Shown here in pieces: positions 33,901 to 50,439 of a stretch of DNA of 50,439 nucleotides. This stretch comes from Cyclobacteriaceae bacterium (GTDB lineage: Bacteria > Bacteroidota > Bacteroidia > Cytophagales > Cyclobacteriaceae), in NCBI GenBank assembly GCA_036569145.1, contig DATCRE010000589.1, forward strand, positions 1-50,439, given 5' to 3'. The position numbers and the translations under genes are program-made. Under the pieces are notes generated by a model, which was given only the letters and a program-made list of their open reading frames with translations, was not told the DNA's origin and searched no databases. The first letter of the stretch is position 1; each line of letters starts with the position of its first letter.

Positions 33901-34103
33901 CATAAAAAACCTGATGTAGTCTGAATGGAAGAAGTGATCTCGTTGGAGATTAATCCGTTTTTGCCAGACCATTTTTTTGTGAAGAGAGTAGGAATTGGTG
34001 GTTCCGAAGATTGAGAGAAACAGTTAATTGTTACAACGCCTATAATTACGGCTGTCTTTATTGGTTGCAGGGTCTTTGCAATCCAATTCATTAGATTTTT
34101 CAT
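30987..34103 (-). CDS. Sensor histidine kinase with HTCS-type periplasmic two-component-regulator propeller and Y_Y_Y domains, but no REC or AraC output
   Basis: 1038 aa. About 700-aa periplasmic region with many Reg_prop-like repeats (IWVGTTNEGLYRI, IWVATEGNGLITY, IWIGTQHGILKI, LYIGTNGGGLSIL). Y_Y_Y-like YKYKLDNVDRFWVNTGTVHQIEYTNLDPGTYTFHI. TM WWFTTLMILLGASILFVIY. H-box FVYSASHDLRSPLSSMMG, N-box NLISNSIKY, G1 DNGIGI, G2 GSGLGLYIV. The protein ends about 30 aa after the ATPase domain. Confidence 0.9.
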   Translation of the reverse strand: MKNLMNWIAKTLQPIKTAVIIGVVTINCFSQSSEPPIPTLFTKKWSGKNGLISNEITSSIQTTSGFLWMTSHHGLMRFDGNDVDLFDQDNVPVLKTGLFEKSYEDTRGTLWFTSHSNGIIQFKDNVFKTFPETPNAKLQSVHCLLIADKNTIWVGTTNEGLYRIANNTVQAVGNSLMQGFTILDIVKDNKNNIWVATEGNGLITYNGTSLKQFTTSDGLQSNFINALAVTSDDNILVGTSSGLNIISDNRITSLASLADIQINCIAIDSKQRAWIGTDTGLTRILLVKDGNKVESVGDENNFPYSQITNISIGEGSNYWLSTFRNGLIQIIDRGITNYRSGENLPINTIARIGCGPQQSILIASENGELIKMIDGVFSPLSTTKKLRGIVINDIFTDSKNNIWIGTQHGILKISPDKKEKWLTTADGLPSNDIYKITEDTSGSIWFASQSKGLAKFQNNHCSNIYNTTNGLHSDAIRSMLADKSGTLYIGTNGGGLSILTAEGKIKTWPILLNDKDVVIYSIHKDRREQVWLTTNFGLYNFNGKAFKNIELKTPLPGASFYDWIEDKNGNIWVTSNAGVVRMYKPDVLEYIAGNISSVEIKLFDVNNGIISREMLAAKSLLTSTGIWVPSPSGITVINPDGIVTDESIPSVYIKSLKTDKTIFSPDSEIKIKPGNNRYTINFTTPEVSSISPIQYKYKLDNVDRFWVNTGTVHQIEYTNLDPGTYTFHIIASTDGNTWSKNASSIVFTVSPYFYQTWWFTTLMILLGASILFVIYKWRVRVIEKANLELRKVNGELDRFVYSASHDLRSPLSSMMGLISLARKEDPALAHSYIIKIEDCVKLLDKLIRDIIDFSSNSRATKFIEQVDFHSIVDESIKMHQYMKGFEELKWKVVINTPHLFHSDPKRIKIIMSNLISNSIKYRNPNASSVVEITISTQKSFCYISVSDNGIGIPAEHVDNIFDMFYRAHATSQGSGLGLYIVKETIFKLHGKITVNSESDKGTTFKIILPTLKTNQPKIRIPWGKWSYLRKPKLTVAEL

Positions 34104-37900: not shown

Positions 37901-38069
37901 TTCAAACTTGCGCATCTACGTAAATGGAAGCAATCTCTTTTACATCACAAAGTACAAAGGTTTCTCACCTGAAGTTTCAAACTCGTATGGTGTAACCACT
38001 ATGGGTGATGATTTCCGCACATACCCCGTTACAGGCATGGTTAAATTTGGTTTAGACGCAAAATTTTAA
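34989..38069 (+). CDS. SusC/RagA-family TonB-dependent outer-membrane transporter
   Basis: 1026 aa. Signal peptide, CarboxypepD_reg-like [37 protein letters not shown], TonB-box-like EVVVVGYG, plug [29 protein letters not shown], C-terminal barrel ending in F. No STN/anti-sigma extension. Confidence 0.95.
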   Translation: [1026 protein letters not shown]

Positions 38070-38081
38070 TTTGATAAAGCG

Positions 38082-39647
38082 ATGAAGAAGATTAAATATA
38101 TATCTATAGCGTTGAGCCTTTTTGCCTTCGCTTCCTGCTCCGACAGTTTCCTGGATAAAGAGCCTCTTGGGGTGTTATCTACAGCCACGTTATCATCAGA
38201 TTCTACTGTATTGAACATGGCTGTTAACAGGCTTTATGGTTCTATCAACTGGCGTGAATATGGTTTAGGCCGCCAGCAATTTGGTACGCATGAAGCATGT
38301 GCCGATGATTTTATTTCAGGAACAACAGTTGATTTCGACCAGGTGTTTGCAAATTATACTTATCTGGCAAGCAATGGTTGGGTGCAGCAATACTGGGATC
38401 GTACGTATCAAAATCTCCACTATTGCAACCTGGTAATTGATAACGCTAATAAATCAAATGCAAAAGTTTCAGGAGTACTGTATGAAGCACAAGGAAAGTT
38501 CTTCCGTGCCTATTACAACTTCGATCTTACCAATGTATTTGGCGATGCACCTTTACGTGATCACGATCCAACACTGGTTGAATATAACATTCCGAAAAGC
38601 ACGCATGCTGAAATTATTGCCCTTGTAATTTCTGATTTAAAATTTGCAATCGATAACCTTCCGACGAGAGCCCAATGGGGAACATCAGGTTTGGGAAGAG
38701 TAACGAAAGGAACAGCGCAAGGCTTGTTGGCAAAAGTTTATTTGTATGAGCAAGACTATGCTAACGCCAAGTTATATGCTGAGCAGGTAATTAATGGGGG
38801 AGAGTACAGTCTTTTCTCAAACTATCGTGCGTTGTTCAGTCCTGATAATCTTTACAGCGCTGAAAACATGATGCCTGGTGGATTTATATTTAATTCATCC
38901 ATCTGGACAGGTCGTTGGTATAGTCCGTTTTTACAATGGCAAGGTTTGAAAAGCTTAGGTGCTAACGCATGCCTTGTGCCATCTCAAAGTTTATATGATG
39001 CTTACGAAAGCGGCGACCCAAGACTTAAAGCTTCTCTGATGATCAAAGGTGTTAATGATACTATTCCCGGATTCAACAACAACGGTGCTGTTGATTTCAG
39101 CGGATCTGGTACAAACACAAAATATGCTAACAAAAAACTTATCTGGCCTTACTCGTACTGGAATAACAGCAACTTCAATTTCCAGAATGTAAATCCTATG
39201 TTCTTACGTTTTGCTGATATTGTTTTGATCGATGCCGAAGCGAGCAATGAATTAGGAAACACAGCCGATGCACAGAAATATCTTGAACAAATTCGTTATC
39301 GTGCACGTGGCAACAAAACATTTGCAGCCTCTGTAGCTGCTGGTGAAAATGGTGGGGCCGGTGTACTTCCCGAAATCACTGCTACCGATAAGGCTACGTT
39401 GCGTCTGGCGATCTGGCATGAACGCAGAGTAGAGTTGGCGATGGAGTTTAATCGCTGGTTCGATTTAGTGCGCTACAATAAAGTTGCTAATCCTGATGGT
39501 ACTGATGGCTCAGGTTATACCTACGCTTTATTACACGATACGTATGGAAGAACCAATTTTGACTACGAGAAATTTAGTCACTTCCCAATTCCTTCAGCGT
39601 ACATTACTTCATCTAATGGTGTTTTAACACAGAACTCCAATTGGTAA
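38082..39647 (+). CDS. SusD/RagB-family nutrient-binding outer-membrane lipoprotein
   Basis: 521 aa, 12 nt after the susC-like stop. Lipobox LFAFASCSDSFLDKEPLG. Typical TPR-like core (YEAQGKFFRAYYNFDLTNVFGDAPL, RAQWGTSGLGRVTKGTAQGLLAKVYLY, WHERRVELAMEFNRWFDLVR). Confidence 0.95.
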   Translation: MKKIKYISIALSLFAFASCSDSFLDKEPLGVLSTATLSSDSTVLNMAVNRLYGSINWREYGLGRQQFGTHEACADDFISGTTVDFDQVFANYTYLASNGWVQQYWDRTYQNLHYCNLVIDNANKSNAKVSGVLYEAQGKFFRAYYNFDLTNVFGDAPLRDHDPTLVEYNIPKSTHAEIIALVISDLKFAIDNLPTRAQWGTSGLGRVTKGTAQGLLAKVYLYEQDYANAKLYAEQVINGGEYSLFSNYRALFSPDNLYSAENMMPGGFIFNSSIWTGRWYSPFLQWQGLKSLGANACLVPSQSLYDAYESGDPRLKASLMIKGVNDTIPGFNNNGAVDFSGSGTNTKYANKKLIWPYSYWNNSNFNFQNVNPMFLRFADIVLIDAEASNELGNTADAQKYLEQIRYRARGNKTFAASVAAGENGGAGVLPEITATDKATLRLAIWHERRVELAMEFNRWFDLVRYNKVANPDGTDGSGYTYALLHDTYGRTNFDYEKFSHFPIPSAYITSSNGVLTQNSNW

Positions 39648-39660
39648 CATAATGATTACA

Positions 39661-39693: not shown

Positions 39694-39887
39694 CTTAACT
39701 CTTTCCATATCATTTAATAAAAGATTAACAATCAATCATAATCAGTCAACGTATTTACGAGGAAGTTTCCCTCTGAACATGACAGGATTATGGTCATTGT
39801 CTGGATAGAGAATATCCCGACAAATTCAGATCAGTGTAGCAGGAATATCTTATTCAGTTTATTGATTTACAAAAGAAACCCCATACT

Positions 39888-42689
39888 ATGAAAACTTCAA
39901 CTAAAAGACCAAACCTGGTAATACCCGGAATGGCCACATCTTTTAATGGGTTGGCAAGTGTGCTGTTGATGGTTGTTATGATAACAGCCAATGTATTAAT
40001 ATCTCATGCGCAAACTTTCGTACATCCCGGAGGTTTGCATAATCAGGCCGACCTTGATCGTATGAAAACGCAGGTGGCCGCAGGTGCTCATCCCTGGATA
40101 GATGATTGGAATGTTCTTATTACAGATTCGCAAGCTCAAAACACCTATACCGCTGCCCCCTTGGCAAACATGGGCGGCAATCGTCAACGGGCGTCGAGAG
40201 ATGCACATGCCGCTTATCTCAATGCTATTCGATGGTACATCTCTGGTGACGTAAGTTATGCAGACTGTGCTGTGAGAATTTGTAATGCATGGTCTTCAAC
40301 AGTAAACCAGGTTCCTTCCGGTACGGATATACCTGGTCTGAGTGGTATTCCCATTTTTGAATTTGCAATGGTAGGGGAGCTTCTCCGGATTTATCCCGGA
40401 TGGTCAGCGACTGACTTTGCAACTTTTAAAAACATGATGATTACGTATCTCTATCCTGTCTGCAATGATTTCCTGGTGAATCACAGGGGCGCTTGTATCA
40501 GCAACTACTGGGCTAATTGGGATATCTGCAATATCGGAGCCATCATGACCATTGGTGTTCTCTGCGATGATGCAGCGAAGTATAACCAGGCTGTAACATA
40601 TTTTCAAAGTGGCGCCGGAATGGGAAGCATTGCTAATGCTGTTACCTTTTTACATCCGGGTAGTTTAGGACAATGGCAAGAGAGTGGTCGTGACCAGGAG
40701 CATGCTCAGCTTGGTGTTGGCATGATGGGTTATTTCTGTGAAGTAGCATGGAACCAGGGCCTCGATCTTTTTGGCTATAGCAGCAATCGATTGATGGCCG
40801 GAGCCGAGTATGTGGCGAAAACCAACTTGTGGCGCTATGTTCCCTATCAATATTATAACAACTGCGTGGGGGCGAATCAATCATGGGTTTCTATAAATGG
40901 TCGTGGTCGTTTGGATGATCGTCCTGTATGGGAATTACTCTATAATCATTACGTTGTACGAAAAGGATTAAGCGCTCCCAACATACAAGCCATGGCACAA
41001 TTGATGCGACCTGAACATGGAAGCATAGATCACTTTGGTTATGGCACATTAACATTTACACAAGCTGCAGCTTCATCACCATATCCACCTTCAGCTATCG
41101 CGCCTGTACCTACAGGACTTACAGCGACGGCAGGTGTTGGCCAGGTGTTTTTGAAATGGGCGCCTTCTAACGGTGCCACTGCACAAGGCTATAATGTATT
41201 GCGTGCAACAACAAGCGGCGGACCTTATACAAGCATTGCATCATGGTCTAACAATACTACGGCGCTGTATACAGATGCATCAGTAACGAATGGCACAACG
41301 TACTACTATGTTGTGGCTGCTATTAACCAGTCAGGCACGAGTGCAAATTCTGCCCAAGCAAGTGCTACACCTATTGCCGCGGGGGCATTGCCTTCAGGAT
41401 GGGCAAGACAAGACATCGGTACTGTGAGTGCTACAGGTAGTGCTGCTTATGCTACTGTTTCCAATGGAACTTTTAATGTTACGGGTTCAGGCACAGGTAT
41501 CGGTGGTACTGCCGATTCATTTGGCTACGCATACCAAAGTGTTACAGGCGATTTCACTATTACAGCTAGGCTTGTATCTATTAGCGGCACGTTGAGTAAA
41601 ACAGGTATTATGATGCGTGAATCACTGGCTACAAATGCCATGGCACTGGTGATGAAGCTTGGTGATACTGGTTGGCGTCAGGCTGGCTTTGGCACACGAT
41701 CTTCAACAGGAGGATCAATGACCTGGGCAGCTGGCAACGACTATACATGGACAACAGCCTGGTTTAGATTGCAACGTGTTGGCAATGTCTTCACAGCATT
41801 TGAATCTTCTGATGGTGCAAGCTGGTTTACTGTGGGAACAAGTACGGTTGCGATGGCAACTACGTATTACGTTGGCCTTGCTGCCTGCTCAGGTAGTACA
41901 ACCGGTGCATTAGACACTTCTGTTTTTGACAACGTAGCTGTTATTTCCGGAAGCGCTCAGCCAATCCCTGATGGAACATATAAAATCATTGCACGACACA
42001 GCGGCAAAGCGCTTGATGTAACCAATAACGGTACGGCTAATGGCACGAACGTGCAGCAGTGGACTTTAAACGGTTGTAATTGTCAACAATGGACGTTAAC
42101 AAACCTGGGGAGTGGCCAATATAAAATCATTGGGCTAAGCAGTGGTAAATCACTTGATGTCGCTGGTGTTTCCACCGCCGATGGCGCTAATGTTCAAATC
42201 TGGACTTACAACGGTGGCAATAATCAACGCTTCACCTTCACACCAACAACCGGTGGGTATTATCGCATTACACCTGTGCATAGTGGAAAGGCGTTGGATG
42301 TAGCCAGTGGCTCCACGGCCGATGGTGCCAACGTACAACAATGGACATACAACGGTGGCAACAACCAACAATGGCAACTCGTGCCCGCTACTTCTGTAGC
42401 CAGAGTAGAAACTGCCACCGCTACACCAACTGTAATTGCAAATGAGAATGATGAACAGGTTATCATTTATCCAAATCCGGCAACCGATGAGATTACTGTA
42501 AAGCTGGGACATGATTTTGAATCAGGTGCTACGCTGATGTTCCGTGATGGTAATGGCCGGACTTTGTATTCACTGCAGGTAAAAGGTGCTGAGCATGTAC
42601 TAAAGCTCAATAAAATTTCAGTTGGCTATTATTTCATGGATATAAGCAATGCGAAAGGAAGTATCACCAAAAAACTTATAAAATATTGA
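39888..42689 (+). CDS. Secreted alginate-lyase-fold (PF05426-like) protein with Fn3, ConA-like module, ricin-B lectin and T9SS C-terminal sorting domain
   Basis: 933 aa. Signal peptide. Head FVHPGGLHNQADLDRMKTQVAAGAHPW..RDAHAAYLNAIRWYISGDVSYADCAVRICNAWSS..SNYWANWD..GRDQEHAQLGVGMMGYFCEVAWNQGLDLF. Fn3 at ~41100-41375 (YNVLRATTSGGPYTSIA..TNGTTYYYVVAA). ConA-like at ~41380-41950 (WARQDIGTVSATG..FGYAYQSVTGDFTITARL..KTGIMMRE). Ricin at ~41960-42385 with three QxW repeats (NVQQWTLNGCNCQQWTL, NVQIWTYNGGNNQRFTF, NVQQWTYNGGNNQQWQL). CTD at ~42455-42686 (VIIYPNPATDEITVKL). Confidence 0.88.
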   Translation: MKTSTKRPNLVIPGMATSFNGLASVLLMVVMITANVLISHAQTFVHPGGLHNQADLDRMKTQVAAGAHPWIDDWNVLITDSQAQNTYTAAPLANMGGNRQRASRDAHAAYLNAIRWYISGDVSYADCAVRICNAWSSTVNQVPSGTDIPGLSGIPIFEFAMVGELLRIYPGWSATDFATFKNMMITYLYPVCNDFLVNHRGACISNYWANWDICNIGAIMTIGVLCDDAAKYNQAVTYFQSGAGMGSIANAVTFLHPGSLGQWQESGRDQEHAQLGVGMMGYFCEVAWNQGLDLFGYSSNRLMAGAEYVAKTNLWRYVPYQYYNNCVGANQSWVSINGRGRLDDRPVWELLYNHYVVRKGLSAPNIQAMAQLMRPEHGSIDHFGYGTLTFTQAAASSPYPPSAIAPVPTGLTATAGVGQVFLKWAPSNGATAQGYNVLRATTSGGPYTSIASWSNNTTALYTDASVTNGTTYYYVVAAINQSGTSANSAQASATPIAAGALPSGWARQDIGTVSATGSAAYATVSNGTFNVTGSGTGIGGTADSFGYAYQSVTGDFTITARLVSISGTLSKTGIMMRESLATNAMALVMKLGDTGWRQAGFGTRSSTGGSMTWAAGNDYTWTTAWFRLQRVGNVFTAFESSDGASWFTVGTSTVAMATTYYVGLAACSGSTTGALDTSVFDNVAVISGSAQPIPDGTYKIIARHSGKALDVTNNGTANGTNVQQWTLNGCNCQQWTLTNLGSGQYKIIGLSSGKSLDVAGVSTADGANVQIWTYNGGNNQRFTFTPTTGGYYRITPVHSGKALDVASGSTADGANVQQWTYNGGNNQQWQLVPATSVARVETATATPTVIANENDEQVIIYPNPATDEITVKLGHDFESGATLMFRDGNGRTLYSLQVKGAEHVLKLNKISVGYYFMDISNAKGSITKKLIKY
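42455..42686 (+). other. T9SS type A C-terminal sorting domain of the 39888-42689 protein
   Basis: VIIYPNPATDEITVKLGHDFESGATLMFRDGNGRTLYSLQVKGAEHVLKLNKISVGYYFMDISNAKGSITKKLIKY. The YPNPA..D...V and G.Y......G....K.IK pattern is typical of Por_Secre_tail. Confidence 0.85.
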
Positions 42690-42718
42690 GGTCACTTTAA
42701 AATAATCAATTCATCATT

Positions 42719-45700
42719 ATGATACATAACAAATCAAATATCCCGATCAATCGCAAGAGGAATTCTGGTACAACTGCGGGAGTACTCAAAAGAATTTTCC
42801 TGATACTGTTGTTTGCGGGATCACTATCACAACTGAAAGCCCAGTCTTTTGTACACCCGGGAATTCCTTTCACATCGGATGATCTTAATCAGTTAAAAAC
42901 AAATATTGTCAATGGAAAAGAACCGTGGACCAGCCTGTATGCATCCTTTGCCAGCAGTTCTTACTCTTCATTGAATTATGGTATGCAAGGCCCGTTTGCC
43001 ACTGTTGGACGTGCTCCTGATGTACATCTTACACAATGGCAAAATGACATGCGGGCTATTTTTCATTTAAGCTTGATGTCAGTCTTTACAAGCAACACCG
43101 CCTATGCTGCAAAAGCAACAGCTATACTCGACAGTTGGGCAACAACCAATACGAGATGGGAGGGTGAAGAAACTTTTCTTGCACTGGGAGATTACAGTGA
43201 ATATTTTGTAACAGGTGCTGACATCTTAAAATCAACTTACTCAGGTTGGACAGCTGCTAATACAAGCCACGTAAACAGTTATTTCAATAATGTAATATGG
43301 CCCGAATTAGATGTTCCTAATCCTGTGCGCCCTATGAACCAGGGATGTATCCAATTGAAAGCAGCGTTAAGCGTTGCCGTTTTTTTAGATGATGCAGTGA
43401 AATGGAACCAGGCGATAAACTCATATCGTACTGATGTTGGCGGCGGCTTGTACAATAGTCTTCCTAACGGTCAGATAGGTGACGCAGGTCGTGATGAAGG
43501 TCACTGGAGAGGAGGAGTACAAGCACTGATATGGGGAGCAGAAGTAGCCTGGAAGCAAGGTGTGGATTTGTTCTCAGAAATGGATAATCGTTTGCTAAAG
43601 ATATGCGAGTTATATTGTCGCTATCATTTAAGCACTTCTAATTTAACCTTCATACCTTTCGGTGGACCATACGCATATTATACAGGCTGGGCCGATGATG
43701 GCTCACCAAAATCATTATTCAATGCTTACAACATTATAAGCAATGCTTACACAAACCGAAAAGGAATTTCAACACCATTCACAGACCGGTTTATTGATTT
43801 GAAAGGTAATGACATTTATACTTTCCTTTTTCTTAAAAGTTCAGACAACTCAACGGCTACGCAACCTGAGGCTGTTATATATCCAAAAACAAGCGCCATT
43901 ACTTCGCTCACAAGTGCTGATGTAGGCACTACGGGCATTGCGGGAAGTACGACGTATAACAATGGCGTATGGACTATACAAGGTGCAGGCTCTTTACCAG
44001 TTCCACCCAACTCAAGTGTAGATGCATTTCATTTTTCTTTTCAAAAAGTAACTGACGATGCTTCCATCATTGCGCGGGTAACTTCTATCGAAAATACGGG
44101 TGACAATGTTCGCGTCGGAATCATGATGCGTGAGTCACTTGCTGTTGATGCTAAATATGTAGGATTGTTTATGCCCGCAGGTGGTGGCATGCTTGCTACA
44201 TGGCGTGGTGCTTCGGCCTGGAGTAAAACAAGCACCTCGTGGAATACACCAGCGACTAAAGGCCTCCAAACAAATCCGGGTGGTATACCACAATGGTTAA
44301 AGCTTGTGCGCAGAGGTACACGCGTTGCCCTGTTACACTCGAATGACTCTATAAACTGGTCAGGTGTTGCGGAAGCAGAAATAGCATTGCCCAGTACCAC
44401 TTACATAGGTTTGGTAGTGGCTTCCAATAGCACTTCAAAATTAAATACCTCTACGTTTTCTAATATTTCTATTACGAATACGTCACCTGCAGGATCGCCT
44501 GTTATAAGCAGCAGCCTCGGAGCCTCAGGAAGTGTAGGTTCAGCCTTTAGTTATACCGTTACGGGCACCAATGCTCCTGTATCTTTCGGCGCAACAGATT
44601 TGCCCGATGGTTTAAGCATTAACGCAGCAACAGGAGTTATTTCCGGAACACCAACAGCTTTTGGTACATCATACACCACCATTACAGCAACCAATGCAAA
44701 TGGTACAGCGAGTGCGGTTCTTAAAATTGAAATTGCCAACAGCGTAGCACCATCAGCGCCTCTAACGGTTACTGCTGTTCCGGTAAATACCTATAGTGTC
44801 GGGTTATCATGGTCGGCATCACCAGGCGCGTCAAGCTATTCTATAAAACATTCCGCTGTTTCAGGAGGTCCGTATGCCATTATTGCTTCCAATATCACCG
44901 ATACCACATTTGTTGATGATGCAGCATTGCCCAAAGCTAACTATTATGTAGTCGAAGCGTTCTCAGGCAGTCTTGAAAGTACACCATCAACCGAAGTATT
45001 GATTACGCTGCTCCCTGATATTTCAGATAGCGTTGTCGTTTCAGGTGGAGTTGGCAACGTTACGATCAATTGGGCTGCGGCTGATGGTGCAACGAGTTAC
45101 AATGTAAAACGTTCGTCTGCAACGGGTGGACCCTATACTACAATTGCTACCGGAGTCACGGCTACAACTTATACAGATAATGGACTGACTAACGGCCAGG
45201 TTTATTATTATGTTATCTCATCTGTTTCTGATGCAGGAGAAAGTGAAAACTCTGTAGAGAAATCAGGAACTCCCGGATCAACAACAGTAAAGTGGGCGGC
45301 AAGTCCAACGACTGGCAATTGGAATCTTGGAAGTAACTGGGAAGGATCAGCTGTTCCTCCGACGTATGCAAGTTTAGTCTTTGGTGCATCAAGCTCAGCA
45401 ACACTTACAAATGATATGGATAGTTTAAAAGTATCCAAACTCATTTTTAATGCTGATGCTCCGGCCTATACCATCGGTGGTAATGTTTTAATGCCGGGAA
45501 CTGAAATAACCAATAACTCATCTTCACTTCAGACTATTAACACGCCGTTGACATTGCGTAATGTTCTTGCTGTTAATTCAAATACGGGCAGCACGCAACT
45601 TTTGGGTGCTATAAGCGGAACAGGAAGTATAACCATAAATAACACCACTGCAACGGGTTCTACCATCGGTGGATCAAACACGTACTCCGGTGGAACAACT

Positions 45701-48700
45701 GTATATGGAAGCTGGAACGGCGTATGGGGTACACCTAGTTATGCTTTAAATATCATGGGCACTGGCACTGGTGCAATTGGAGCGCCAACAGGAGGTGCAT
45801 TTGGTACAGGCCCCGTTTATCTTAAGGGTGGATGTCTTGTAAATTCTGGTTATGCCAAAATTTACAATGACGTTTATCTTGCCACTAATACAAATAACTA
45901 TGCGATAACAAATCCAGGTGGTATGGAATTCGCAGGCAGATTTATTGGTGATGGCAATTTCTCTCTTGAGTGTAGCTATGGTTATCCATACTATACTTTC
46001 AGTGGAGATAATAGTGCGTTCACAGGCAAATTCACTACCATCAAGCGTACATCTTTTTTCCGCATGGCCATTACGTCTGCTGCCGCTGGTAGCGCTAAAG
46101 CGAAATGGGAATTTAATCCGAATTTTAGTGCTGACTGTCTGCGACTACAATTTAACGGAACGATAGAGTTTGGTGAATTCGCGGGTGTAGGTTCTATGCA
46201 TGCCTTCGGAGGTGCAAGTCCTATACTCAGCATCGGTGCGCTGAATACGGATGCAACGTATGGTGGTACAGCTTCAGACGGTACTTCATTTGTTAAAGTA
46301 GGAACAGGAACACAACGTTTTGTTGGAGTAAATACATATTGGGGTACTACTACAGTACAGTCTGGTAAGTTTTATGTGAACAATGATTTTGCAAGTCCTG
46401 TAACAGTTAATGGTGGTATCTTTGGTGGAGTAGGTTTAAGCTCTGCTTCTGTAACTGTAAACAATGGTGGAACATTATCACCTGGTGATGATGGCTTGGG
46501 TATATTCACGACTACAAATACACTTACTGCAGCAACAGGCGCAACGTTAGCCATTGAAATCAGCAGCTCGAATGTAACCTCTGATGGAATTGTGGCTAGT
46601 GGTGTTACGCTCAATAATGCTACGTTGAGTTTGACAGATATTAATTCAGGAACATTACCAACAGGTACAAATTTCACACTAATCAATAACACAGGCTCTG
46701 CAGCTGTCGTTGGTACATTCAATGGCCTGCCGGAATATTCTACCATTACGATTGGAAATTATAATTTTCAAATCACTTACAAAGGAGGAACAGGCAATGA
46801 TATAGTTCTTCTTGATGAAAGAACAGTGCCTGCGTACATCACAAGCGCTGCAACAGGAGTGATTTCCGTTGGTCAATCTTTTACATATACACTTACTTCT
46901 AATCGCACCATACTTTCCAGCAGTGCTACAGGACTTCCTCAAGGTTTAACGATTAATAGTACAACCGGGGTTATCAGTGGCACACCAACTTCCACTGGCG
47001 TATATGCTATCGCGATTTCTGCTGTGACTGATAAGGGCACAACAACAGGAACGTTAGTGCTTACTGTAAATACAAACGCAGTACCATCGACACCTGCTGG
47101 CTTAGCAGCTTCAAATGCAGGATTGGCAAAAGCACTCTTGACATGGAATAAACTCAGCACCACGCAACTTGTAACAGGTTATTCAATCAAGCGCAGTACA
47201 ACAAGTGGCGGACCTTATACTACCGTTGCAACAGGCGTTACTGATACAACTTATACGGACACAGGATTGTCGTATAATGTTACGTACTACTATGTGGTTT
47301 CGGCCAGCAACAGCTTTGGTGAAAGCACAAACTCCGGGCAGACTACGGTAACTACATTATCACCGCCAGTACCGTCGGCTGTAAGTTCATTATCTGCTGT
47401 TAATGGCAATGCAAAAATTAATCTCAGGTGGAGTCCTAATAAGTATACTGAAAGCTTCACCGTCAAGAGATCTACAGTTTCTGGTGGTTCCTACACAACG
47501 ATAGCGACTGCTGTAACGGATACATCCTATGTAGACAATACAGTTTCAAATGCAACTACATATTATTATGTTGTCACTGCTAAGAACATCAGCGGAGAAT
47601 CAGCTAACTCAAATGAAGCTGTTGCCACACCTGAATCGACAGCATACAATTGGTGGCCTTTCAATGAAACAACGGGCAGTTCTATAGCTGATGTTTGGGG
47701 AGGTAAAACCGCAACATTGAATGCAGGCACACGTGTACCAGGCATACAAGGTTCAGCCATAAACCTGGCAGGCACCAGCACAAATTATGTTTCATTACCG
47801 AGTGGCATTGTCAGTTCATTAACAAATTTTACCATCTCAGTCTGGGTTAAACCAACCACCATCACAAACTGGATGCGCTTGTTTGATTTTGGATCGGGTA
47901 CAACAAATTACATGTTCTTTGCCATGAGCACTGGCAGCACGCCACGTTATGCTATACGGACACCGTCAGTGGGGGAAAAGGTTATCAATAGTTCAGTAGC
48001 GTTAACAACAGGTAAATGGTCGCACATTGCCATTACACAATCTGGCTCTACCGCTATGATGTATATCAATGGTGTAGTAGTGGGTTCTAATACTGCCATG
48101 ACGCTTTCACCTTCCAGTTTAGGTAATACAACCTTAAATTATATAGGAAAGTCTCAATTCAGCAATGATCCTTATCTGAACGCTTCAGTTGATGATTTCC
48201 GGATTTACGGAAGAAGTCTTACAGCTTCTGAAATTTCTTCGGTTATGAATACAGAAGTGTTGAAGGCACCAACCAATGTAGTAGCGAGTGGCGCTTATAA
48301 AAATGTTTCTGTTTCATGGACAGCGTCTGCTAAAGCTACCGCTTACAATGTAAAACGTTCTACAACAAGCGGTGGCCCTTATTCAACTATCGGTGCTGGT
48401 ATAACAGCAACAAGCTACATTGATACAACTGCGTTGATGGCTAACTACTACTATGTAGTAACAAGTATTTCCGGAAGCAATGAAAGCTTTGTTTCGAACG
48501 AAGCTTCTGTAGCGATAACTTCTGTGCCTAATGTACCAGCCGTGCCTTCAAGCGTTGCTGGCATTCCTGGCAATGCAAAAGTTACGCTTACGTGGCGTGC
48601 TGCTTCTGATGCTGCTGTGTATCGCGTGAAGAGAGCGAGCGTAACAGGTGGCCCTTATACTTTATTAGGTGTGACTTCCACTACGTCGTATGTGGATAAC

Positions 48701-50439
48701 ACAACATCAAATGGTGTGACGTACTACTATGTTGTATCGGCAAAGAATGTTTCTGGCGAGTCGGCTAATTCAGCTGAAGTGAGTGCAACTCCTTTTACGT
48801 ATGCATGGAGTTACTGGCCTATGAATGAAAATACAGGAACGACAACGGCAGACTATTGGAGTACCAGAACAGGTACGTTAAATGGTGGCACTGGAATAAG
48901 CTGGACAACGGGTGTTTCCGGTTCAGGTATTCTTTTCAATCCAGCCAGCAGCACACCTTATGTTTCTATGCCAAGCGGTATTGTAAGCACGCTCACTGAC
49001 TTTACTATTTCAGCATGGGTAAAACCAAATGCATTAAGCACATGGTCACGAGTGTTTGATTTTGGTACGAGTACAAGTAATTACATGTTCCTTTCTGTTA
49101 GCAATGGAAGTGTACCACGCTTTGCTATCCGCACAGCTTCAGTAGCTGAAAATGGAATCAATAGTTCTACTGCATTGCAAGCCGGCAAATGGGCACACAT
49201 GGTTGTTACACAAGCTGGTACTACGGCCATTATGTATATCAATGGTGTAGAAGTGGGACGTAATTCTGCTATGGCTCTTACTCCAAGTAGCATGGGTACC
49301 ACAACACAGAACTATTTTGGTAAGTCACAGTGGGCAGATCCATATCTGAATGGTGTGTTGGATGATATTCGCATTTACAATAAATCATTAAGCACGTCAG
49401 AGATAGTTGCGTTAGTAAATGAATTCGCACCTGCTAAACCATCAACAGTAACAGCTGCGGGTAGCTACAAAAATGTTTTGGTGAATTGGACTAGTTCATC
49501 AGGAGCATCATCATACAACGTTAAAAGAGCAACTGTAAGTGGCGGACCTTATACAACACTGGCTACAGGCGTAACAGCGCTTTCGTATACAGATGCAACA
49601 GCTACTTATGGCACATATTATTATGTAGTAACATCGTCATCGGCAGATAACAAAGAAGGTGTTCCTTCAGACGAAGCAACCGTTCTGCTGCCTCCTGCTG
49701 CCATCGCGAATGCAAGGGCTACGGGATGGAATAGCCGTATAGACTTAAGTTGGGCAGCATCTTCAGGAGCCTCCAGCTATAATGTGAAACGTTCAGATGT
49801 TAGTGGTGGTCCTTATACACTTGTTTCAACTGTAACCACAACGGCATACAATGATGCTACTGTTAGCAACGGCACTGCGTACTACTATAGTATCGAAGCA
49901 GTTGGTACAGGTGGAAGCAGTGTAAGCAATGAACTAAGCGCGACACCAATCAGTAACGCACTATCGAATACATGGAAACATGCTGATGTGGGCGCTGTTG
50001 GAATAACTGGTAATGCACAACCTACTGATAGCACATTTACACTATATGGTTCAGGTTCTGATATATATTTCCAGACCGACATGTTTCAGTTTGCCTATCA
50101 GCGTATCTCAGGTAATGTTGGTATAGTAACACGTATAGCTGATCAGCAAAATACGAGATCGTATGCGAGGGCAGGGGTAACGATTCGTGATACCGTTACT
50201 ACTAATGCCATTCATGCAACGTTAACAAACACGCCAACCAGCATAAAAGAGTTCATTTCAAGAACGGCAACAACGTCTAATGCTGTTGAGGATATTGTAA
50301 GCAATCAACCTGATGCCAAGTGGCTAAGACTGGTGAGAAAAGATACCGTTGTTTCAGCTTACTATTCACAAGATGGCATCAACTGGTTAATGCAAAATTC
50401 GAAGACTATCAAGATGAGACAGAATGCTTATGTTGGATT
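42719..50439 (+). CDS. Giant secreted mosaic protein, 3'-truncated by the window (more than 2573 aa): alginate-lyase-fold head, ConA-like modules, He_PIG-type Ig domains, 8 Fn3, autotransporter-associated beta-strand-repeat region, 2 LamG domains
   Basis: Absent from the ORF track because there is no stop in the window. I translated frame 2 codon by codon from 44402 to 50437 and from the start to ~43700 and met no stop. ATG 42719 gives MIHNKSNIPINRKRNSGTTAGVLKRIFLILLFAGSLSQLKAQSFVHPGIPFTSDDLNQLK.. Head ~42845-43830 (GRDEGHWRGGVQALIWGAEVAWKQGVDLF). ConA-like ~43900-44480. Ig ~44485-44745 (LPDGLSINAATGVISGTP). Fn3 x2 44750-45275. Beta-helix-like repeats 45280-46830 (TGTQRFVGVNTYWGTTTVQSGKFYVNN..GIFTTTNTLTAATGATLAIEI..ITYKGGTGNDIVLLDE). 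Ig 46835-47065. Then [Fn3-Fn3-LamG] x2 and Fn3-Fn3-ConA-like to the window end. Confidence 0.9.
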   Translation, partial: MIHNKSNIPINRKRNSGTTAGVLKRIFLILLFAGSLSQLKAQSFVHPGIPFTSDDLNQLKTNIVNGKEPWTSLYASFASSSYSSLNYGMQGPFATVGRAPDVHLTQWQNDMRAIFHLSLMSVFTSNTAYAAKATAILDSWATTNTRWEGEETFLALGDYSEYFVTGADILKSTYSGWTAANTSHVNSYFNNVIWPELDVPNPVRPMNQGCIQLKAALSVAVFLDDAVKWNQAINSYRTDVGGGLYNSLPNGQIGDAGRDEGHWRGGVQALIWGAEVAWKQGVDLFSEMDNRLLKICELYCRYHLSTSNLTFIPFGGPYAYYTGWADDGSPKSLFNAYNIISNAYTNRKGISTPFTDRFIDLKGNDIYTFLFLKSSDNSTATQPEAVIYPKTSAITSLTSADVGTTGIAGSTTYNNGVWTIQGAGSLPVPPNSSVDAFHFSFQKVTDDASIIARVTSIENTGDNVRVGIMMRESLAVDAKYVGLFMPAGGGMLATWRGASAWSKTSTSWNTPATKGLQTNPGGIPQWLKLVRRGTRVALLHSNDSINWSGVAEAEIALPSTTYIGLVVASNSTSKLNTSTFSNISITNTSPAGSPVISSSLGASGSVGSAFSYTVTGTNAPVSFGATDLPDGLSINAATGVISGTPTAFGTSYTTITATNANGTASAVLKIEIANSVAPSAPLTVTAVPVNTYSVGLSWSASPGASSYSIKHSAVSGGPYAIIASNITDTTFVDDAALPKANYYVVEAFSGSLESTPSTEVLITLLPDISDSVVVSGGVGNVTINWAAADGATSYNVKRSSATGGPYTTIATGVTATTYTDNGLTNGQVYYYVISSVSDAGESENSVEKSGTPGSTTVKWAASPTTGNWNLGSNWEGSAVPPTYASLVFGASSSATLTNDMDSLKVSKLIFNADAPAYTIGGNVLMPGTEITNNSSSLQTINTPLTLRNVLAVNSNTGSTQLLGAISGTGSITINNTTATGSTIGGSNTYSGGTTVYGSWNGVWGTPSYALNIMGTGTGAIGAPTGGAFGTGPVYLKGGCLVNSGYAKIYNDVYLATNTNNYAITNPGGMEFAGRFIGDGNFSLECSYGYPYYTFSGDNSAFTGKFTTIKRTSFFRMAITSAAAGSAKAKWEFNPNFSADCLRLQFNGTIEFGEFAGVGSMHAFGGASPILSIGALNTDATYGGTASDGTSFVKVGTGTQRFVGVNTYWGTTTVQSGKFYVNNDFASPVTVNGGIFGGVGLSSASVTVNNGGTLSPGDDGLGIFTTTNTLTAATGATLAIEISSSNVTSDGIVASGVTLNNATLSLTDINSGTLPTGTNFTLINNTGSAAVVGTFNGLPEYSTITIGNYNFQITYKGGTGNDIVLLDERTVPAYITSAATGVISVGQSFTYTLTSNRTILSSSATGLPQGLTINSTTGVISGTPTSTGVYAIAISAVTDKGTTTGTLVLTVNTNAVPSTPAGLAASNAGLAKALLTWNKLSTTQLVTGYSIKRSTTSGGPYTTVATGVTDTTYTDTGLSYNVTYYYVVSASNSFGESTNSGQTTVTTLSPPVPSAVSSLSAVNGNAKINLRWSPNKYTESFTVKRSTVSGGSYTTIATAVTDTSYVDNTVSNATTYYYVVTAKNISGESANSNEAVATPESTAYNWWPFNETTGSSIADVWGGKTATLNAGTRVPGIQGSAINLAGTSTNYVSLPSGIVSSLTNFTISVWVKPTTITNWMRLFDFGSGTTNYMFFAMSTGSTPRYAIRTPSVGEKVINSSVALTTGKWSHIAITQSGSTAMMYINGVVVGSNTAMTLSPSSLGNTTLNYIGKSQFSNDPYLNASVDDFRIYGRSLTASEISSVMNTEVLKAPTNVVASGAYKNVSVSWTASAKATAYNVKRSTTSGGPYSTIGAGITATSYIDTTALMANYYYVVTSISGSNESFVSNEASVAITSVPNVPAVPSSVAGIPGNAKVTLTWRAASDAAVYRVKRASVTGGPYTLLGVTSTTSYVDNTTSNGVTYYYVVSAKNVSGESANSAEVSATPFTYAWSYWPMNENTGTTTADYWSTRTGTLNGGTGISWTTGVSGSGILFNPASSTPYVSMPSGIVSTLTDFTISAWVKPNALSTWSRVFDFGTSTSNYMFLSVSNGSVPRFAIRTASVAENGINSSTALQAGKWAHMVVTQAGTTAIMYINGVEVGRNSAMALTPSSMGTTTQNYFGKSQWADPYLNGVLDDIRIYNKSLSTSEIVALVNEFAPAKPSTVTAAGSYKNVLVNWTSSSGASSYNVKRATVSGGPYTTLATGVTALSYTDATATYGTYYYVVTSSSADNKEGVPSDEATVLLPPAAIANARATGWNSRIDLSWAASSGASSYNVKRSDVSGGPYTLVSTVTTTAYNDATVSNGTAYYYSIEAVGTGGSSVSNELSATPISNALSNTWKHADVGAVGITGNAQPTDSTFTLYGSGSDIYFQTDMFQFAYQRISGNVGIVTRIADQQNTRSYARAGVTIRDTVTTNAIHATLTNTPTSIKEFISRTATTSNAVEDIVSNQPDAKWLRLVRKDTVVSAYYSQDGINWLMQNSKTIKMRQNAYVG
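47068..49420 (+). repeat. Tandem in-frame duplication of a ~1.17-kb coding unit [Fn3-Fn3-LamG] (47068-48250 and 48251-49420). A third Fn3-Fn3 pair follows at 49421-~49950
   Basis: The protein-level alignment is visible by eye, e.g. PSGIVSSLTNFTISVWVKPTTITNWMRLFDFGSGTTNYMFFAMSTGSTPRYAIRT vs PSGIVSTLTDFTISAWVKPNALSTWSRVFDFGTSTSNYMFLSVSNGSVPRFAIRT, and YINGVVVGSNTAMTLSPSSLGNTTLNYIGKSQFSNDPYLNASVDDFRIYGRSLTASEI vs YINGVEVGRNSAMALTPSSMGTTTQNYFGKSQWADPYLNGVLDDIRIYNKSLSTSEI. Confidence 0.85.

What the first reader, a model, noticed from the sequence alone, without database searches (positions are those of the whole stretch)
42719..50439. Giant ORF missing from the ORF track: an enzyme-like head fused to an adhesin-scale array
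Seen: frame 2 stays open from ATG 42719 to the window edge (7721 nt, 2573 complete codons). All ORF-track entries in this span are short minus-strand shadows.

Domain order, from motifs I read directly:
- signal peptide
- lyase-fold head
- ConA-like module
- Ig (He_PIG-like)
- 2 Fn3
- about 500 aa of autotransporter-associated beta-strand repeats
- Ig
- [Fn3-Fn3-LamG] x2
- Fn3-Fn3-ConA-like, continuing past the window

Established knowledge: the beta-strand-repeat regions form beta-helices typical of adhesins. From my recollection, they are common in Verrucomicrobia and Proteobacteria and are not typical PUL cargo.

Inference: this may be a cell-surface 'enzyme on a stalk', or a polysaccharide-capturing adhesin with catalytic activity. 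Its C-terminus (possibly a T9SS CTD) lies outside the window.
Basis: partly seen in the sequence, partly recalled or inferred. Interest (0 to 1): 0.65.

Follow-up and report, generated by a model that had tools for sequence, protein, structure and literature searches.

The report
Giant secreted lyase-like PUL protein
This is a real but truncated gene for a very large secreted surface protein of a soil Bacteroidota bacterium: a polysaccharide-lyase-like head followed by many sugar-binding modules, encoded in a polysaccharide-utilisation locus; it belongs to a widespread family that nobody has characterised, so it is not a one-off oddity.

Summary
Frame 2 is open for all 2573 codons from ATG 42719 to the window edge.

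The gene is cut by the end of the contig, not broken. A Cyclobacteriaceae MAG carries a complete 3245-aa ortholog that is 89.8% identical and collinear with one gap. dN/dS is 0.04-0.20 in every domain. The ortholog ends in He_PIG, two Ig-like modules, two CBM3 and a T9SS C-terminal domain.

The head folds as an (alpha/alpha)-toroid polysaccharide lyase resembling PL5, PL17 and PL38 (pLDDT 92.5). It keeps the carboxylate-binding Asn and Arg. The canonical His/Tyr pair is replaced, and the family has its own invariant His262 and Tyr344.

The 520-aa beta-helix is closest in structure to CBM89, a xylan-binding module. Its C-terminal third is homologous to autotransporter PATR repeats.

The core HEAD-DUF1349-Ig-Fn3x2-beta-helix-Ig-Fn3-LamG recurs in more than 100 Bacteroidota proteins. 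These usually lie beside SusC/SusD or a sensor kinase, and in several genomes among GH28, GH88, GH95 and lyase genes.

Best reading: a T9SS-exported, PUL-encoded enzyme that captures and probably cleaves an acidic polysaccharide. Catalysis and substrate are not shown. It is a new member of a known kind, of moderate interest.

The parts
42719..50439 (+). 5' 79% (2573 of about 3245 codons) of the giant gene, cut by the contig end
   Evidence: No stop in 2573 codons. The ortholog in L019 is 3245 aa, 89.8% identical and collinear. dN/dS is 0.094.
42719..42841 (+). Sec signal peptide, aa 1-41. Predicted cleavage is ...LKA|QSF, leaving Gln42 as the first mature residue.
   Evidence: Read from the sequence. 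Gln at the aligned position in 103 of 110 family members. No signal-peptide predictor was available.
42842..43894 (+). HEAD, aa 42-392: (alpha/alpha)-toroid, polysaccharide-lyase-like. Invariant N207, R258, D259, H262, Q280, D283, R291, E297, Y344.
   Evidence: Pfam Alginate_lyase 21.2 bits, below the cut-off of 22.2. AF2 pLDDT 92.5. Foldseek hits to PL35, PL39, PL38, PL17 and PL5, TM 0.56-0.68. Residue alignment to A1-III. Invariant columns.
43904..44494 (+). DUF1349-like ConA-type jelly-roll 1, aa 396-592. It is the obligate partner of HEAD across phyla.
   Evidence: Pfam DUF1349 17.2 bits, below the cut-off. 31% identical to the same module of the neighbouring gene. Profile hit to 3MEP at E 0.004. 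The HEAD-D1349 pairing is seen across phyla in most of the fetched loci and in nearly all of the 120 homologs.
44501..44755 (+). He_PIG Ig-like domain 1, aa 595-679
   Evidence: PF05345, 46 bits.
44750..45271 (+). Fn3 pair 1, aa 678-763 and 766-851
   Evidence: PF00041, 29 bits; self-built HMM, 104-108 bits.
45275..46834 (+). Right-handed parallel beta-helix, aa 853-1372. CBM89-like fold; the C-terminal third is homologous to PATR/autotransporter repeats.
   Evidence: TIGR02601 22.6 bits, above the cut-off of 19.85. Pfam PATR 19.6 bits, below the cut-off. AF2 pLDDT 91.6, all-beta. Foldseek top hit 7JVI, E 6.8e-7. Profile hit to Ssp 8E7F, E 5.4e-16.
46835..47089 (+). He_PIG Ig-like domain 2, aa 1373-1457
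   Evidence: PF05345, 45.6 bits.
47084..47629 (+). Fn3 pair 2, aa 1456-1545 and 1552-1637
   Evidence: PF00041, 31-39 bits.
47699..48268 (+). Laminin_G_3 (LamG/ConA-like) module 1, aa 1661-1850
   Evidence: PF13385, 120.4 bits.
48263..48790 (+). Fn3 pair 3, aa 1849-1932 and 1940-2024
   Evidence: Self-built Fn3 HMM, 101-106 bits. Pfam fn3 is weak at 17 bits.
48860..49435 (+). Laminin_G_3 module 2, aa 2048-2239. 58% aa and 64% nt identical to module 1.
   Evidence: PF13385, 115.6 bits.
49430..49945 (+). Fn3 pair 4, aa 2238-2323 and 2326-2409
   Evidence: Self-built HMM, 98-106 bits.
49970..50437 (+). DUF1349-like module 2, aa 2418-2573, cut by the window end. In the ortholog it is followed by He_PIG, 2 Ig-like modules, 2 CBM3 and a T9SS CTD.
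   Evidence: Pfam DUF1349 27.7 bits, below the cut-off. Ortholog C-terminus.
39888..42689 (+). Upstream short paralog, 933 aa: HEAD-Fn3-DUF1349-2x RicinB-T9SS CTD. Its stop codon is 29 nt before the giant's ATG.
   Evidence: Alginate_lyase 40.2 bits, RicinB 133.7, Por_Secre_tail 38.3. Head 24% identical to the giant's, E 2e-25.
38082..39647 (+). SusD-like lipoprotein
   Evidence: SusD_RagB 120 bits, SusD-like_3 79 bits.
34989..38069 (+). SusC-like TonB-dependent transporter
   Evidence: CarbopepD_reg_2, Plug and TonB_dep_Rec_b-barrel.
30987..34103 (-). Divergently transcribed Reg_prop/Y_Y_Y sensor histidine kinase, the likely regulator of the locus. It lacks receiver and AraC output domains.
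   Evidence: The same kind of kinase lies next to homologs.

Best explanation
The ORF is the first 79% of an intact gene from a Cyclobacteriaceae-like Bacteroidota bacterium. It is the last gene of a same-strand SusC-SusD-(short lyase-like paralog)-giant cluster, which is a polysaccharide utilisation locus.

Proposed mechanism:
1. A Sec signal peptide takes the protein to the periplasm. Cleavage leaves an N-terminal Gln.
2. [quoted passage not shown] This domain lies outside the window but is present in the ortholog. The protein is then probably attached to the cell surface.
3. The N-terminal (alpha/alpha)-toroid head, together with its obligate DUF1349 jelly-roll partner, is the candidate catalytic unit. 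It is a distant relative of the PL5/PL17/PL38 uronate lyases. It keeps the Asn (N207) and Arg (R258) that bind and neutralise the uronate carboxylate. In place of the canonical His/Tyr it has a family-specific invariant His262, Tyr344 and acidic residues.
4. The head most likely cleaves an acidic (uronate-containing) heteropolysaccharide by beta-elimination.
5. The remainder is a chain of glycan-binding modules spaced by Fn3 pairs and He_PIG Ig domains: a CBM89-like beta-helix, two LamG, a second DUF1349-like module and, in the ortholog, two CBM3. This chain holds a complex or insoluble substrate multivalently at the cell surface.
6. The fragments are taken up by SusC/SusD.

Shown: reading frame, domains, folds, conservation, selection, synteny, and the CTD in the ortholog.
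Inferred: lyase activity, substrate class, surface anchoring and operon structure.
For: - ORF intact over 2573 codons.
- Complete ortholog of 3245 aa, 89.8% identical with one gap and the same synteny.
- dN/dS is 0.094 overall and 0.04-0.20 in each domain, at dS 0.57.
- Repeat units are at most 64% identical in DNA, with no exact repeat of 20 nt or more.
- Head: AF2 pLDDT 92.5. All 50 listed Foldseek hits are (alpha/alpha)-toroid polysaccharide lyases.
- N207 and R258 align to the catalytic N191 and R239 of A1-III.
- Nine polar residues are invariant in all 22 aligned heads, including distant ones.
- Ortholog C-terminus: CBM_3 at 93 bits and Por_Secre_tail at 41 bits.
- The neighbouring paralog has its own Por_Secre_tail.
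- Gln follows the signal peptide in 103 of 110 homologs.
- Beta-helix: pLDDT 91.6; the top structural match is the xylan-binding CBM89, 7JVI.
- The core architecture is conserved in nearly all of the 120 best homologs.
- PUL linkage: 20 of 41 loci have SusC/SusD and 31 of 41 have SusC/SusD or the sensor kinase.
- Homologs sit among GH28, GH88, GH95, GH2, GH43, GH42, GH30 and Hepar_II_III/ulvan-lyase-like genes in Flavobacterium and Mucilaginibacter, and beside GH97 in Chitinophaga. GH88 acts on the unsaturated products of lyases (established knowledge).
Against: - The canonical PL5 catalytic His192 position is Gln/Lys, and the Tyr246 position is Gly/Val.
- The Pfam Alginate_lyase score for this head is just below the gathering cut-off (21.2 against 22.2).
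- No member of the head family has a solved structure or an informative name, and no paper was found on it.
- The window's own PUL has no GH88/GH105 or other downstream enzyme within the sequence available.
- The neighbourhoods of homologs are heterogeneous, so no single substrate can be named.
- The CTD is seen only in the ortholog.
- The promoter and terminator scans say nothing about operon structure.
Confidence: 0.62

Rival explanations
1. It is a non-catalytic surface glycan-binding protein (SGBP-like) or polysaccharide-capturing adhesin. On this reading the lyase-fold head has lost catalysis and acts only as a uronate-binding module. The whole protein tethers substrate, or the cell to substrate, while other enzymes cut it, for example the short paralog, whose head scores better against Alginate_lyase.
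For: - Canonical His and Tyr are replaced.
- The giant's head scores below the Pfam cut-off, while the paralog scores 40.2 bits.
- Most of the mass consists of binding-type modules: CBM89-like beta-helix, LamG, DUF1349 and CBM3.
- The founding CBM89 is non-catalytic.
Against: - Nine polar residues (N, R, D, H, Q, D, R, E, Y) are invariant across heads from several phyla, including the paralog, which lacks the canonical His/Tyr too. This pattern is more typical of an active site than of a binding surface.
- The head has one of the lowest dN/dS values (0.067).
- The head is always at the N-terminus and always paired with DUF1349.
Confidence: 0.25
2. It is a motility, biofilm or cell-cell adhesin, like SprB/RemA T9SS cargo or autotransporter adhesins, with no role in nutrient acquisition.
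For: - Size, Fn3/Ig arrays, and a PATR beta-helix homologous to autotransporter passengers such as Ssp, Hap and Ag43.
- One homolog shows a weak SprB Pfam hit.
- T9SS cargo include gliding adhesins (established knowledge).
Against: - Recurrent placement directly after SusC/SusD and among GH/PL genes.
- CBM3, CBM6 or CBM35 tails in the ortholog and in homologs.
- A lyase-fold head.
- No autotransporter beta-barrel. The ortholog ends in CBM3 and a CTD.
Confidence: 0.08
3. It is a pseudogene, or an assembly chimera of repeated modules.
For: The gene is truncated and repeat-rich, and the contig ends inside it.
Against: - No stop in 2573 codons.
- An independently assembled ortholog is collinear with a single gap.
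- dN/dS is 0.09.
- Repeats are too diverged to collapse: at most 64% nt identity and no exact 20-mer repeat.
Confidence: 0.02

Closest known systems
PL5 / PL17 / PL38 (alpha/alpha)-toroid uronate lyases (A1-III 1QAZ/4F13, Alg17c 4NEI, BoPL38 3NNB/9FI1); Pfam Alginate_lyase PF05426
   Same: The head has the same fold (Foldseek probability 1.0, TM 0.56-0.68). The Asn and Arg that bind the carboxylate are aligned and invariant. It has an N-terminal position in a secreted, PUL-encoded protein.
   Different: Identity is only 11-17%. There is no phmmer hit to any PDB sequence. The Pfam score is below the cut-off. The catalytic His is Gln/Lys and the Tyr is Gly/Val, with a different invariant His, Tyr and acidic set. 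The head is always followed by a DUF1349 jelly-roll rather than the Hepar_II_III beta-sandwich of PL17. Activity is untested.
CBM89 (CapCBM89, PDB 7JVI), the beta-helix xylan-binding module of a Bacteroidaceae GH10 xylanase (PMC8810776)
   Same: It is the best structural match to the 520-aa beta-helix (E 6.8e-7, TMq 0.46, TMt 0.55). Both are non-catalytic-looking right-handed beta-helices inside Bacteroidota PUL CAZymes.
   Different: Identity is 17%. The family profile does not detect it even at E <= 10. Here the module is internal, not N-terminal. The binding residues (Y62 and E82 of CapCBM89) were not compared. The ligand is unknown.
Autotransporter (type V) passenger beta-helices with PATR repeats (Serratia Ssp 8E7F, Hap, EspC, Ag43, pertactin)
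   Same: The C-terminal third of the beta-helix is homologous in sequence to Ssp residues 428-588 (E 5.4e-16). TIGR02601 scores above its cut-off. The fold matches.
   Different: There is no C-terminal beta-barrel translocator. Export is by T9SS, as shown by the CTD in the ortholog. The host is Bacteroidota and the context is a PUL.
Multimodular T9SS-secreted CAZymes of Bacteroidota (for example Flavobacterium johnsoniae ChiA and Cytophaga hutchinsonii cellulases; from my own knowledge and PMC11611037, PMC12860637 as listed)
   Same: A signal peptide, a catalytic-type module, Fn3/Ig spacers and CBMs, and a type-A CTD. The function is polysaccharide use at the cell surface.
   Different: It is much larger, at about 3245 aa. 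The core order is fixed and conserved. The head belongs to an uncharacterised family.
Database homologs annotated 'autotransporter-associated beta strand protein' (JGI) or 'LamG-like jellyroll fold domain-containing protein' / 'cellulose binding domain-containing protein' (NCBI), for example in Chitinophaga sp. YR573, C. filiformis, Niastella, Mucilaginibacter, Pedobacter and Flavobacterium
   Same: The same HEAD-DUF1349-Ig-Fn3-Fn3-beta-helix-Ig-Fn3-LamG core, at 41-50% identity for those with this core.
   Different: The window protein and its ortholog have an expanded tail, with a second [Fn3-Fn3-LamG] unit inserted ahead of the [Fn3-Fn3-DUF1349-Ig] unit that its closest homologs share. None of these homologs is characterised.

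Membership tests
Pfam Alginate_lyase (PF05426) / CAZy PL5-type lyase | Score at or above the Pfam gathering cut-off (22.2 bits) | tested here: not met
   17.0 bits for the whole protein and 21.2 bits for the isolated head. The neighbouring paralog passes at 40.2 bits.
Pfam Alginate_lyase (PF05426) / CAZy PL5-type lyase | (alpha/alpha)-toroid fold | tested here: met
   AF2 model pLDDT 92.5. All top Foldseek hits are PL5, PL17, PL38, PL39, PL35 or PL15 toroids, TM 0.56-0.68.
Pfam Alginate_lyase (PF05426) / CAZy PL5-type lyase | Catalytic Asn-His ... Arg ... Tyr set (A1-III N191, H192, R239, Y246) | tested here: not met
   N207 and R258 are aligned and invariant. The His position is Gln/Lys/Trp and the Tyr position is Gly/Val.
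Pfam Alginate_lyase (PF05426) / CAZy PL5-type lyase | Beta-elimination activity on a uronate polysaccharide | not testable with these tools
   This needs an enzyme assay.
CAZy PL family assignment (dbCAN HMMs) | Significant match to a CAZy PL family model | not tested
T9SS type-A cargo | N-terminal Sec signal peptide | tested here: met
   Read directly: a basic n-region, a hydrophobic core (IFLILLFAGSL) and LKA|Q. Gln follows in 103 of 110 homologs. No predictor was run.
T9SS type-A cargo | C-terminal Por_Secre_tail / TIGR04183 domain | tested here: inconclusive
   The C-terminus lies outside the window. The 89.8%-identical ortholog has Por_Secre_tail at 41 bits against a cut-off of 27, as do most homologs.
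T9SS type-A cargo | T9SS machinery in the same genome; secretion dependent on it | not testable with these tools
   Only one 50-kb contig is available. The adjacent gene also carries a CTD, which implies that the organism has a T9SS.
Polysaccharide utilisation locus (PUL) | Adjacent SusC-like and SusD-like gene pair with co-oriented glycan-active genes | tested here: met
   SusC 34989-38069, SusD 38082-39647, paralog 39888-42689 and giant 42719-, all on the + strand. The same order is found in L019.
Autotransporter (type V secretion) | PATR / autotransporter-associated beta-strand repeats in a beta-helix | tested here: met
   TIGR02601 22.6 bits, above the cut-off of 19.85. Profile hit to Ssp at E 5.4e-16. 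Pfam PATR itself is below its cut-off (19.6 against 27).
Autotransporter (type V secretion) | C-terminal 12-stranded beta-barrel translocator domain | tested here: not met
   The ortholog's C-terminus is He_PIG, Ig-like x2, CBM3 x2 and Por_Secre_tail, with no autotransporter domain.
CBM89 | Right-handed beta-helix resembling CapCBM89 (7JVI) | tested here: met
   Foldseek rank 1, E 6.8e-7, TMq 0.46, TMt 0.55, 430 aligned columns.
CBM89 | Sequence-level relatedness to the founding member | tested here: not met
   The beta-helix profile (A2) does not find 7JVI at E <= 10. Identity in the structural alignment is 17%.
CBM89 | Carbohydrate binding | not testable with these tools
   This needs affinity gels, ITC or similar.
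Laminin_G_3 (PF13385) | Score above the gathering cut-off (27.6) | tested here: met
   120.4 and 115.6 bits for the two modules.
He_PIG (PF05345) | Score above the gathering cut-off (24) | tested here: met
   46.0 and 45.6 bits.
DUF1349 (PF07081) | Score above the gathering cut-off (32.4) | tested here: not met
   17.2 bits for module 1, and 18.5 (segment scan) to 27.7 (whole protein) bits for module 2. A family profile finds the DUF1349 structure 3MEP at only E 0.004. I treat these modules as DUF1349-like.

The most novel reading that the evidence does not exclude
The HEAD+DUF1349 pair may found a new polysaccharide-lyase family. It has about 1400 clusters at 50% identity, spread across Bacteroidota, Verrucomicrobiota, Planctomycetota, Kiritimatiellota and some Actinomycetota. 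It would use a non-canonical catalytic set (Asn207 and Arg258 for the carboxylate, His262 and Tyr344 as base and acid) on a substrate for which no enzyme family is yet assigned. In Bacteroidota it is permanently wired to a CBM89-like/PATR beta-helix, which would then be a second, divergent beta-helix CBM lineage derived from autotransporter-type repeats.
Probability: 0.3. Interest if true: 0.65.

Novelty: new member of a known kind. Interest (0 to 1): 0.42.

Why it matters
Giant proteins like this are among the largest genes in soil Bacteroidota, and automatic annotation reduces them to vague names.

The analysis shows three things:
- A roughly 1800-aa architecture is conserved as a unit and is tied to SusC/SusD loci.
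- It is headed by an uncharacterised relative of uronate lyases. That head family is large, with 1392 clusters at 50% identity (E <= 1e-30).
- It contains a beta-helix whose nearest solved relative is the recently founded CBM89.

If the head is active, it would define a new lyase family and give a handle on how soil Bacteroidota attack complex acidic plant or microbial polysaccharides. If it is not active, the family would be a clear example of a lyase fold recruited for binding. Either way the next experiment is simple: express residues 42-592 and screen substrates.

For the genome scan, the 'missing ORF' is only an edge effect of the ORF lister.

Tried and rejected
- Exact-sequence look-up of the complete neighbouring protein, to extend the contig: not on record. 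The window is the whole contig.
- phmmer of both heads against PDB sequences: no hit. Profile and fold searches were needed instead.
- BLASTP of the protein against itself, to map repeats: the internal hits were swallowed by the self-match. It was replaced by HMMs built from single units.
- NCBIfam on the head and the DUF1349 modules: nothing.
- Sigma-70 promoter and terminator scan of 34000-43200: no more hits than in shuffles.
- The Bacteroidota TAnnTTTG motif is absent from all four intergenic regions, so operon structure remains an inference from the spacings of 12, 240 and 29 nt.
- Literature searches for the family found nothing relevant ('autotransporter-associated beta strand' with T9SS; DUF1349 with polysaccharide lyase; new PL family with toroid).
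- Source names of simpler head-family members: only 'hypothetical protein', plus one evidently wrong 'cellobiosidase' label on fragments.
- DUF1349-like profile against PDB: only an uncharacterised structural-genomics protein.
- Misassembly and pseudogene: considered and rejected.
- Autotransporter: considered and rejected, because there is no beta-barrel.
- I could not inspect the model coordinates, so the spatial clustering of the invariant residues in the head cleft was not checked.
Full report
**1. The observation**

Translating window 42719-50437 on the + strand gives 2573 codons without a stop. An in-frame TAA at 42698-42700 makes ATG 42719 the first available start, 29 nt after the stop of the upstream gene. 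An open frame of this length cannot arise by chance.

The ORF lister omits ORFs that run off either end. That explains why only two short minus-strand ORFs (44041-44400 and 46372-46746) appear in the span. The protein's own entry in the protein collection reports a longest contig of 50439 nt, so the window is the whole contig and the gene is cut by the assembly end.

**2. Anatomy**

Pfam and NCBIfam scans of the whole protein and of ten segments, plus HMMs built iteratively from single units, give this map in residues:

| Residues | Module | Support |
|---|---|---|
| 1-41 | Signal peptide (cleavage ...LKA\|QSF) | read from sequence |
| 42-392 | Head | Alginate_lyase 21.2 bits, just under the 22.2 cut-off |
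| 396-592 | DUF1349-like jelly roll | weak |
| 595-679 | He_PIG | 46 bits |
| 678-851 | Two Fn3 | |
| 853-1372 | All-beta region | TIGR02601 22.6 bits, above cut-off; Pfam PATR 19.6, below |
| 1373-1457 | He_PIG | 45.6 bits |
| 1456-1637 | Two Fn3 | |
| 1661-1850 | Laminin_G_3 | 120 bits |
| 1849-2024 | Two Fn3 | |
| 2048-2239 | Laminin_G_3 | 116 bits |
| 2238-2409 | Two Fn3 | |
| 2418-2573 | Second DUF1349-like module, cut by the edge | |

The repeated units are old duplications. The two LamG modules are 58% identical in protein and 64% in DNA. The Fn3 units are 36-56% identical in protein. No exact DNA repeat of 20 nt or more exists in the gene. Repeat collapse or chimeric assembly is therefore unlikely.

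**3. Integrity and the missing end**

A scan of reference genomes with the head alignment found locus L019, contig DATJHZ010000615.1 of a Cyclobacteriaceae MAG. It has the gene order SusC (1022 aa), SusD (521 aa), a 934-942-aa lyase-like protein and a complete 3245-aa gene.

The 3245-aa protein aligns with the window protein over all 2573 residues at 89.8% identity with a single gap. Nei-Gojobori dN/dS between the two is 0.094 overall at dS 0.57, and 0.04-0.20 in each of the domains. The gene is functional, and every module is under purifying selection.

The ortholog's extra 672 residues complete the DUF1349-like module. They add a He_PIG domain, two Ig-like modules (one scoring 27.3 bits on HL_N-beta), two CBM_3 (93 bits) and a Por_Secre_tail T9SS C-terminal domain (41 bits). 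The window organism is therefore most likely a Cyclobacteriaceae-like member of the Cytophagales.

**4. The head**

An AlphaFold2 model built on 22 aligned heads is confident (pLDDT 92.5, pTM 0.91) and almost entirely helical. All 50 listed Foldseek matches in the PDB are (alpha/alpha)-toroid polysaccharide lyases acting on uronate polymers. They include a PL35-type chondroitinase, PL39 Dp0100, PL38 BoPL38, PL17 Alg17c and PL5 A1-III/AlgL, with TM 0.56-0.68 and 11-17% identity.

A family profile aligned to A1-III gives these correspondences:

| A1-III catalytic residue | Position in this family |
|---|---|
| N191 | invariant Asn (N207 in the precursor) |
| R239 | invariant Arg (R258) |
| H192 | Gln, Lys or Trp |
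| Y246 | Gly or Val |

The family has its own invariant polar set instead: D259, H262, Q280, D283, R291, E297 and Y344. These are conserved even in heads of only about 25% identity and in the adjacent paralog.

The fold and the carboxylate-binding half of the machinery are kept. The base/acid pair is not the canonical one. Catalysis is plausible, with His262 and Tyr344 as candidates, but it is not shown.

**5. The beta region**

The model of residues 853-1372 is confident (pLDDT 91.6) and all-beta. Its best PDB match is 7JVI (E 6.8e-7, TMt 0.55), followed by the autotransporter passengers Ssp, Hap, EspC, Ag43 and pertactin.

7JVI is CapCBM89, a non-catalytic, xylan-binding beta-helix at the N-terminus of a GH10 xylanase from a Bacteroidaceae MAG. 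It is the founding member of CBM89 (PMC8810776).

At the sequence level the family profile does not detect 7JVI, even at E <= 10. It does detect residues 428-588 of the Serratia autotransporter protease Ssp at E 5.4e-16. The module is therefore a genuine PATR-type beta-helix whose nearest solved fold is a carbohydrate-binding module. It is not part of an autotransporter, because the ortholog has no beta-barrel.

**6. The family**

The protein has 269 relatives with E <= 1e-10 among the 8000 candidates scored. The best complete ones are 47% identical.

Mapping my module profiles onto the 120 best shows a fixed core, HEAD-DUF1349(x1-2)-Ig-Fn3-Fn3-beta-helix-(Ig)-Fn3(-Fn3)-LamG, in nearly all of them. 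It is followed by a variable tail (more LamG, DUF1349, CBM3, or CBM6/CBM35 by the precomputed Pfam) and usually a CTD.

In 78 genome loci, the giant form is confined to Bacteroidota: Chitinophaga, Niastella, Filimonas, Mucilaginibacter, Pedobacter, Flavobacterium, Dyadobacter, Ohtaekwangia and Cyclobacteriaceae. Verrucomicrobiota, Planctomycetota and Pontiella instead carry proteins of about 960 aa, HEAD-DUF1349-Fn3-X-Ricin, often in tandem.

HEAD and DUF1349 occur together in the great majority of these proteins, which marks them as one functional unit. A full-library profile search finds 1392 clusters (50% identity) with E <= 1e-30 for the head. None of those sampled carries an informative name.

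**7. Context**

In the window the gene closes a same-strand cluster:
- SusC (34989-38069).
- SusD (38082-39647).
- A 933-aa paralog (39888-42689), with the order HEAD-Fn3-DUF1349-2x RicinB-CTD. Its head is 24% identical to the giant's, E 2e-25.
- The giant gene.

A Reg_prop/Y_Y_Y sensor kinase is transcribed divergently upstream (30987-34103).

Of 41 genome loci with the giant form:
- 20 have SusC/SusD within 10 kb.
- 19 have the same type of kinase.
- 31 have one or the other.
- 15 have a short HEAD paralog.

These are lower bounds from single-sequence profiles.

Individual neighbourhoods:
- Chitinophaga sp. YR573: SusC-SusD-giant-GH97-HTCS.
- Dyadobacter: ECF sigma/anti-sigma, SusC, SusD, giant.
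- Flavobacterium: GH42, a Hepar_II_III lyase, GH28, GH2, GH43, GH95, GH30 and GH88 in one genome. A second has HTCS-SusC-SusD-SGBP-like-giant-GH2-GH95-ulvan-lyase-like-GH28.
- Mucilaginibacter: HTCS, GH43, GH28 and a HEAD-Ricin paralog.

GH28, GH88, GH95 and PL company is what one expects for acidic, pectin- or rhamnogalacturonan-like or similar heteropolysaccharides. GH88 specifically consumes lyase products (established knowledge of these families). The rest of the window holds sensor kinases and unrelated genes, and no further CAZymes apart from an EndoS-like TIM barrel.

**8. Interpretation**

The best-supported reading is a T9SS-exported, PUL-encoded surface protein. Its lyase-like head, with its DUF1349 partner, attacks an acidic polysaccharide. 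Its many binding modules are spaced by Fn3 and Ig domains: a CBM89-like helix, LamG x2, DUF1349-like, and CBM3 x2 in the ortholog. They hold the substrate at the cell surface for uptake by SusC/SusD.

The main rival is that the head only binds and the protein is an SGBP-like capture device.

An adhesin role unrelated to nutrition is unlikely. A pseudogene or chimera is essentially excluded.

**9. Comparison and novelty**

The protein works like the multimodular T9SS CAZymes of Bacteroidota. Its head resembles PL5, PL17 and PL38 but fails two membership tests, the Pfam cut-off and the catalytic His/Tyr. Its helix resembles CBM89 in fold only.

The architecture is already present in many database entries under uninformative names, and I found no paper on it. 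The gene is therefore a new member of a known kind of system, and it belongs to a large uncharacterised family.

Interest is moderate. The specific open question is whether HEAD+DUF1349 is a new lyase family with a non-canonical catalytic set. That question can be tested directly.

Noticed in passing
window 27532-28587 (-): A 351-aa protein with a strong T6SS Tle1-like phospholipase catalytic domain (PF09994, 287.7 bits). It lies between an M43 peptidase and an EndoS-like gene. No T6SS structural genes were noted among the window genes scanned with Pfam.
   Followed up: no
window 30987-34103 (-): This Reg_prop/Y_Y_Y/HisKA/HATPase sensor kinase is only 1038 aa. It lacks the receiver and AraC-HTH output domains of classical hybrid two-component PUL regulators. 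The same short form (1123-1140 aa) sits beside the closest full-length homologs (L001, L006, L007), whereas other homologs have the full ~1350-1400-aa HTCS.
   Followed up: partly
window 39888-42689 (+): The short paralog has the order HEAD-Fn3-DUF1349-2x RicinB-T9SS CTD. HEAD-Ricin proteins accompany the giant gene in 15 of 41 loci. This suggests a two-enzyme set.
   Followed up: partly
L052, L056, L058, L062, L072 (Verrucomicrobiota); L063, L074 (Planctomycetota); L073, L076 (Pontiella): These loci carry proteins of about 960 aa, HEAD-DUF1349-Fn3-[about 150 aa unassigned]-Ricin, often two or three in tandem. The 150-aa segment matched none of my module profiles.
   Followed up: no
window 24971-26755 (+) and 28836-30878 (+): An EndoS-like endo-beta-N-acetylglucosaminidase TIM barrel (45.8 bits) and a 680-aa M43 (pappalysin-type) metallopeptidase lie upstream of the PUL. 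They may be a separate glycoprotein-targeting pair.
   Followed up: no
window 3475-6207 (-), 10812-12443 (+), 17474-21877 (-): A cluster of TPR-containing signalling proteins. It includes a 1467-aa TPR-PAS-HisKA-HATPase-receiver hybrid kinase with several PAS-family hits.
   Followed up: no
protein P0121 (2287 aa): This is the best hit of the head profile (718.8 bits), and it matches in four separate stretches. It may carry several head copies in one polypeptide.
   Followed up: no
giant protein, aa 42 (nt 42842-42844): Gln is the first residue after the predicted signal-peptide cleavage site in 103 of 110 family members, and in the paralog. From my own knowledge, this fits the reported N-terminal pyroglutamate formation on Bacteroidota secreted proteins.
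   Followed up: partly
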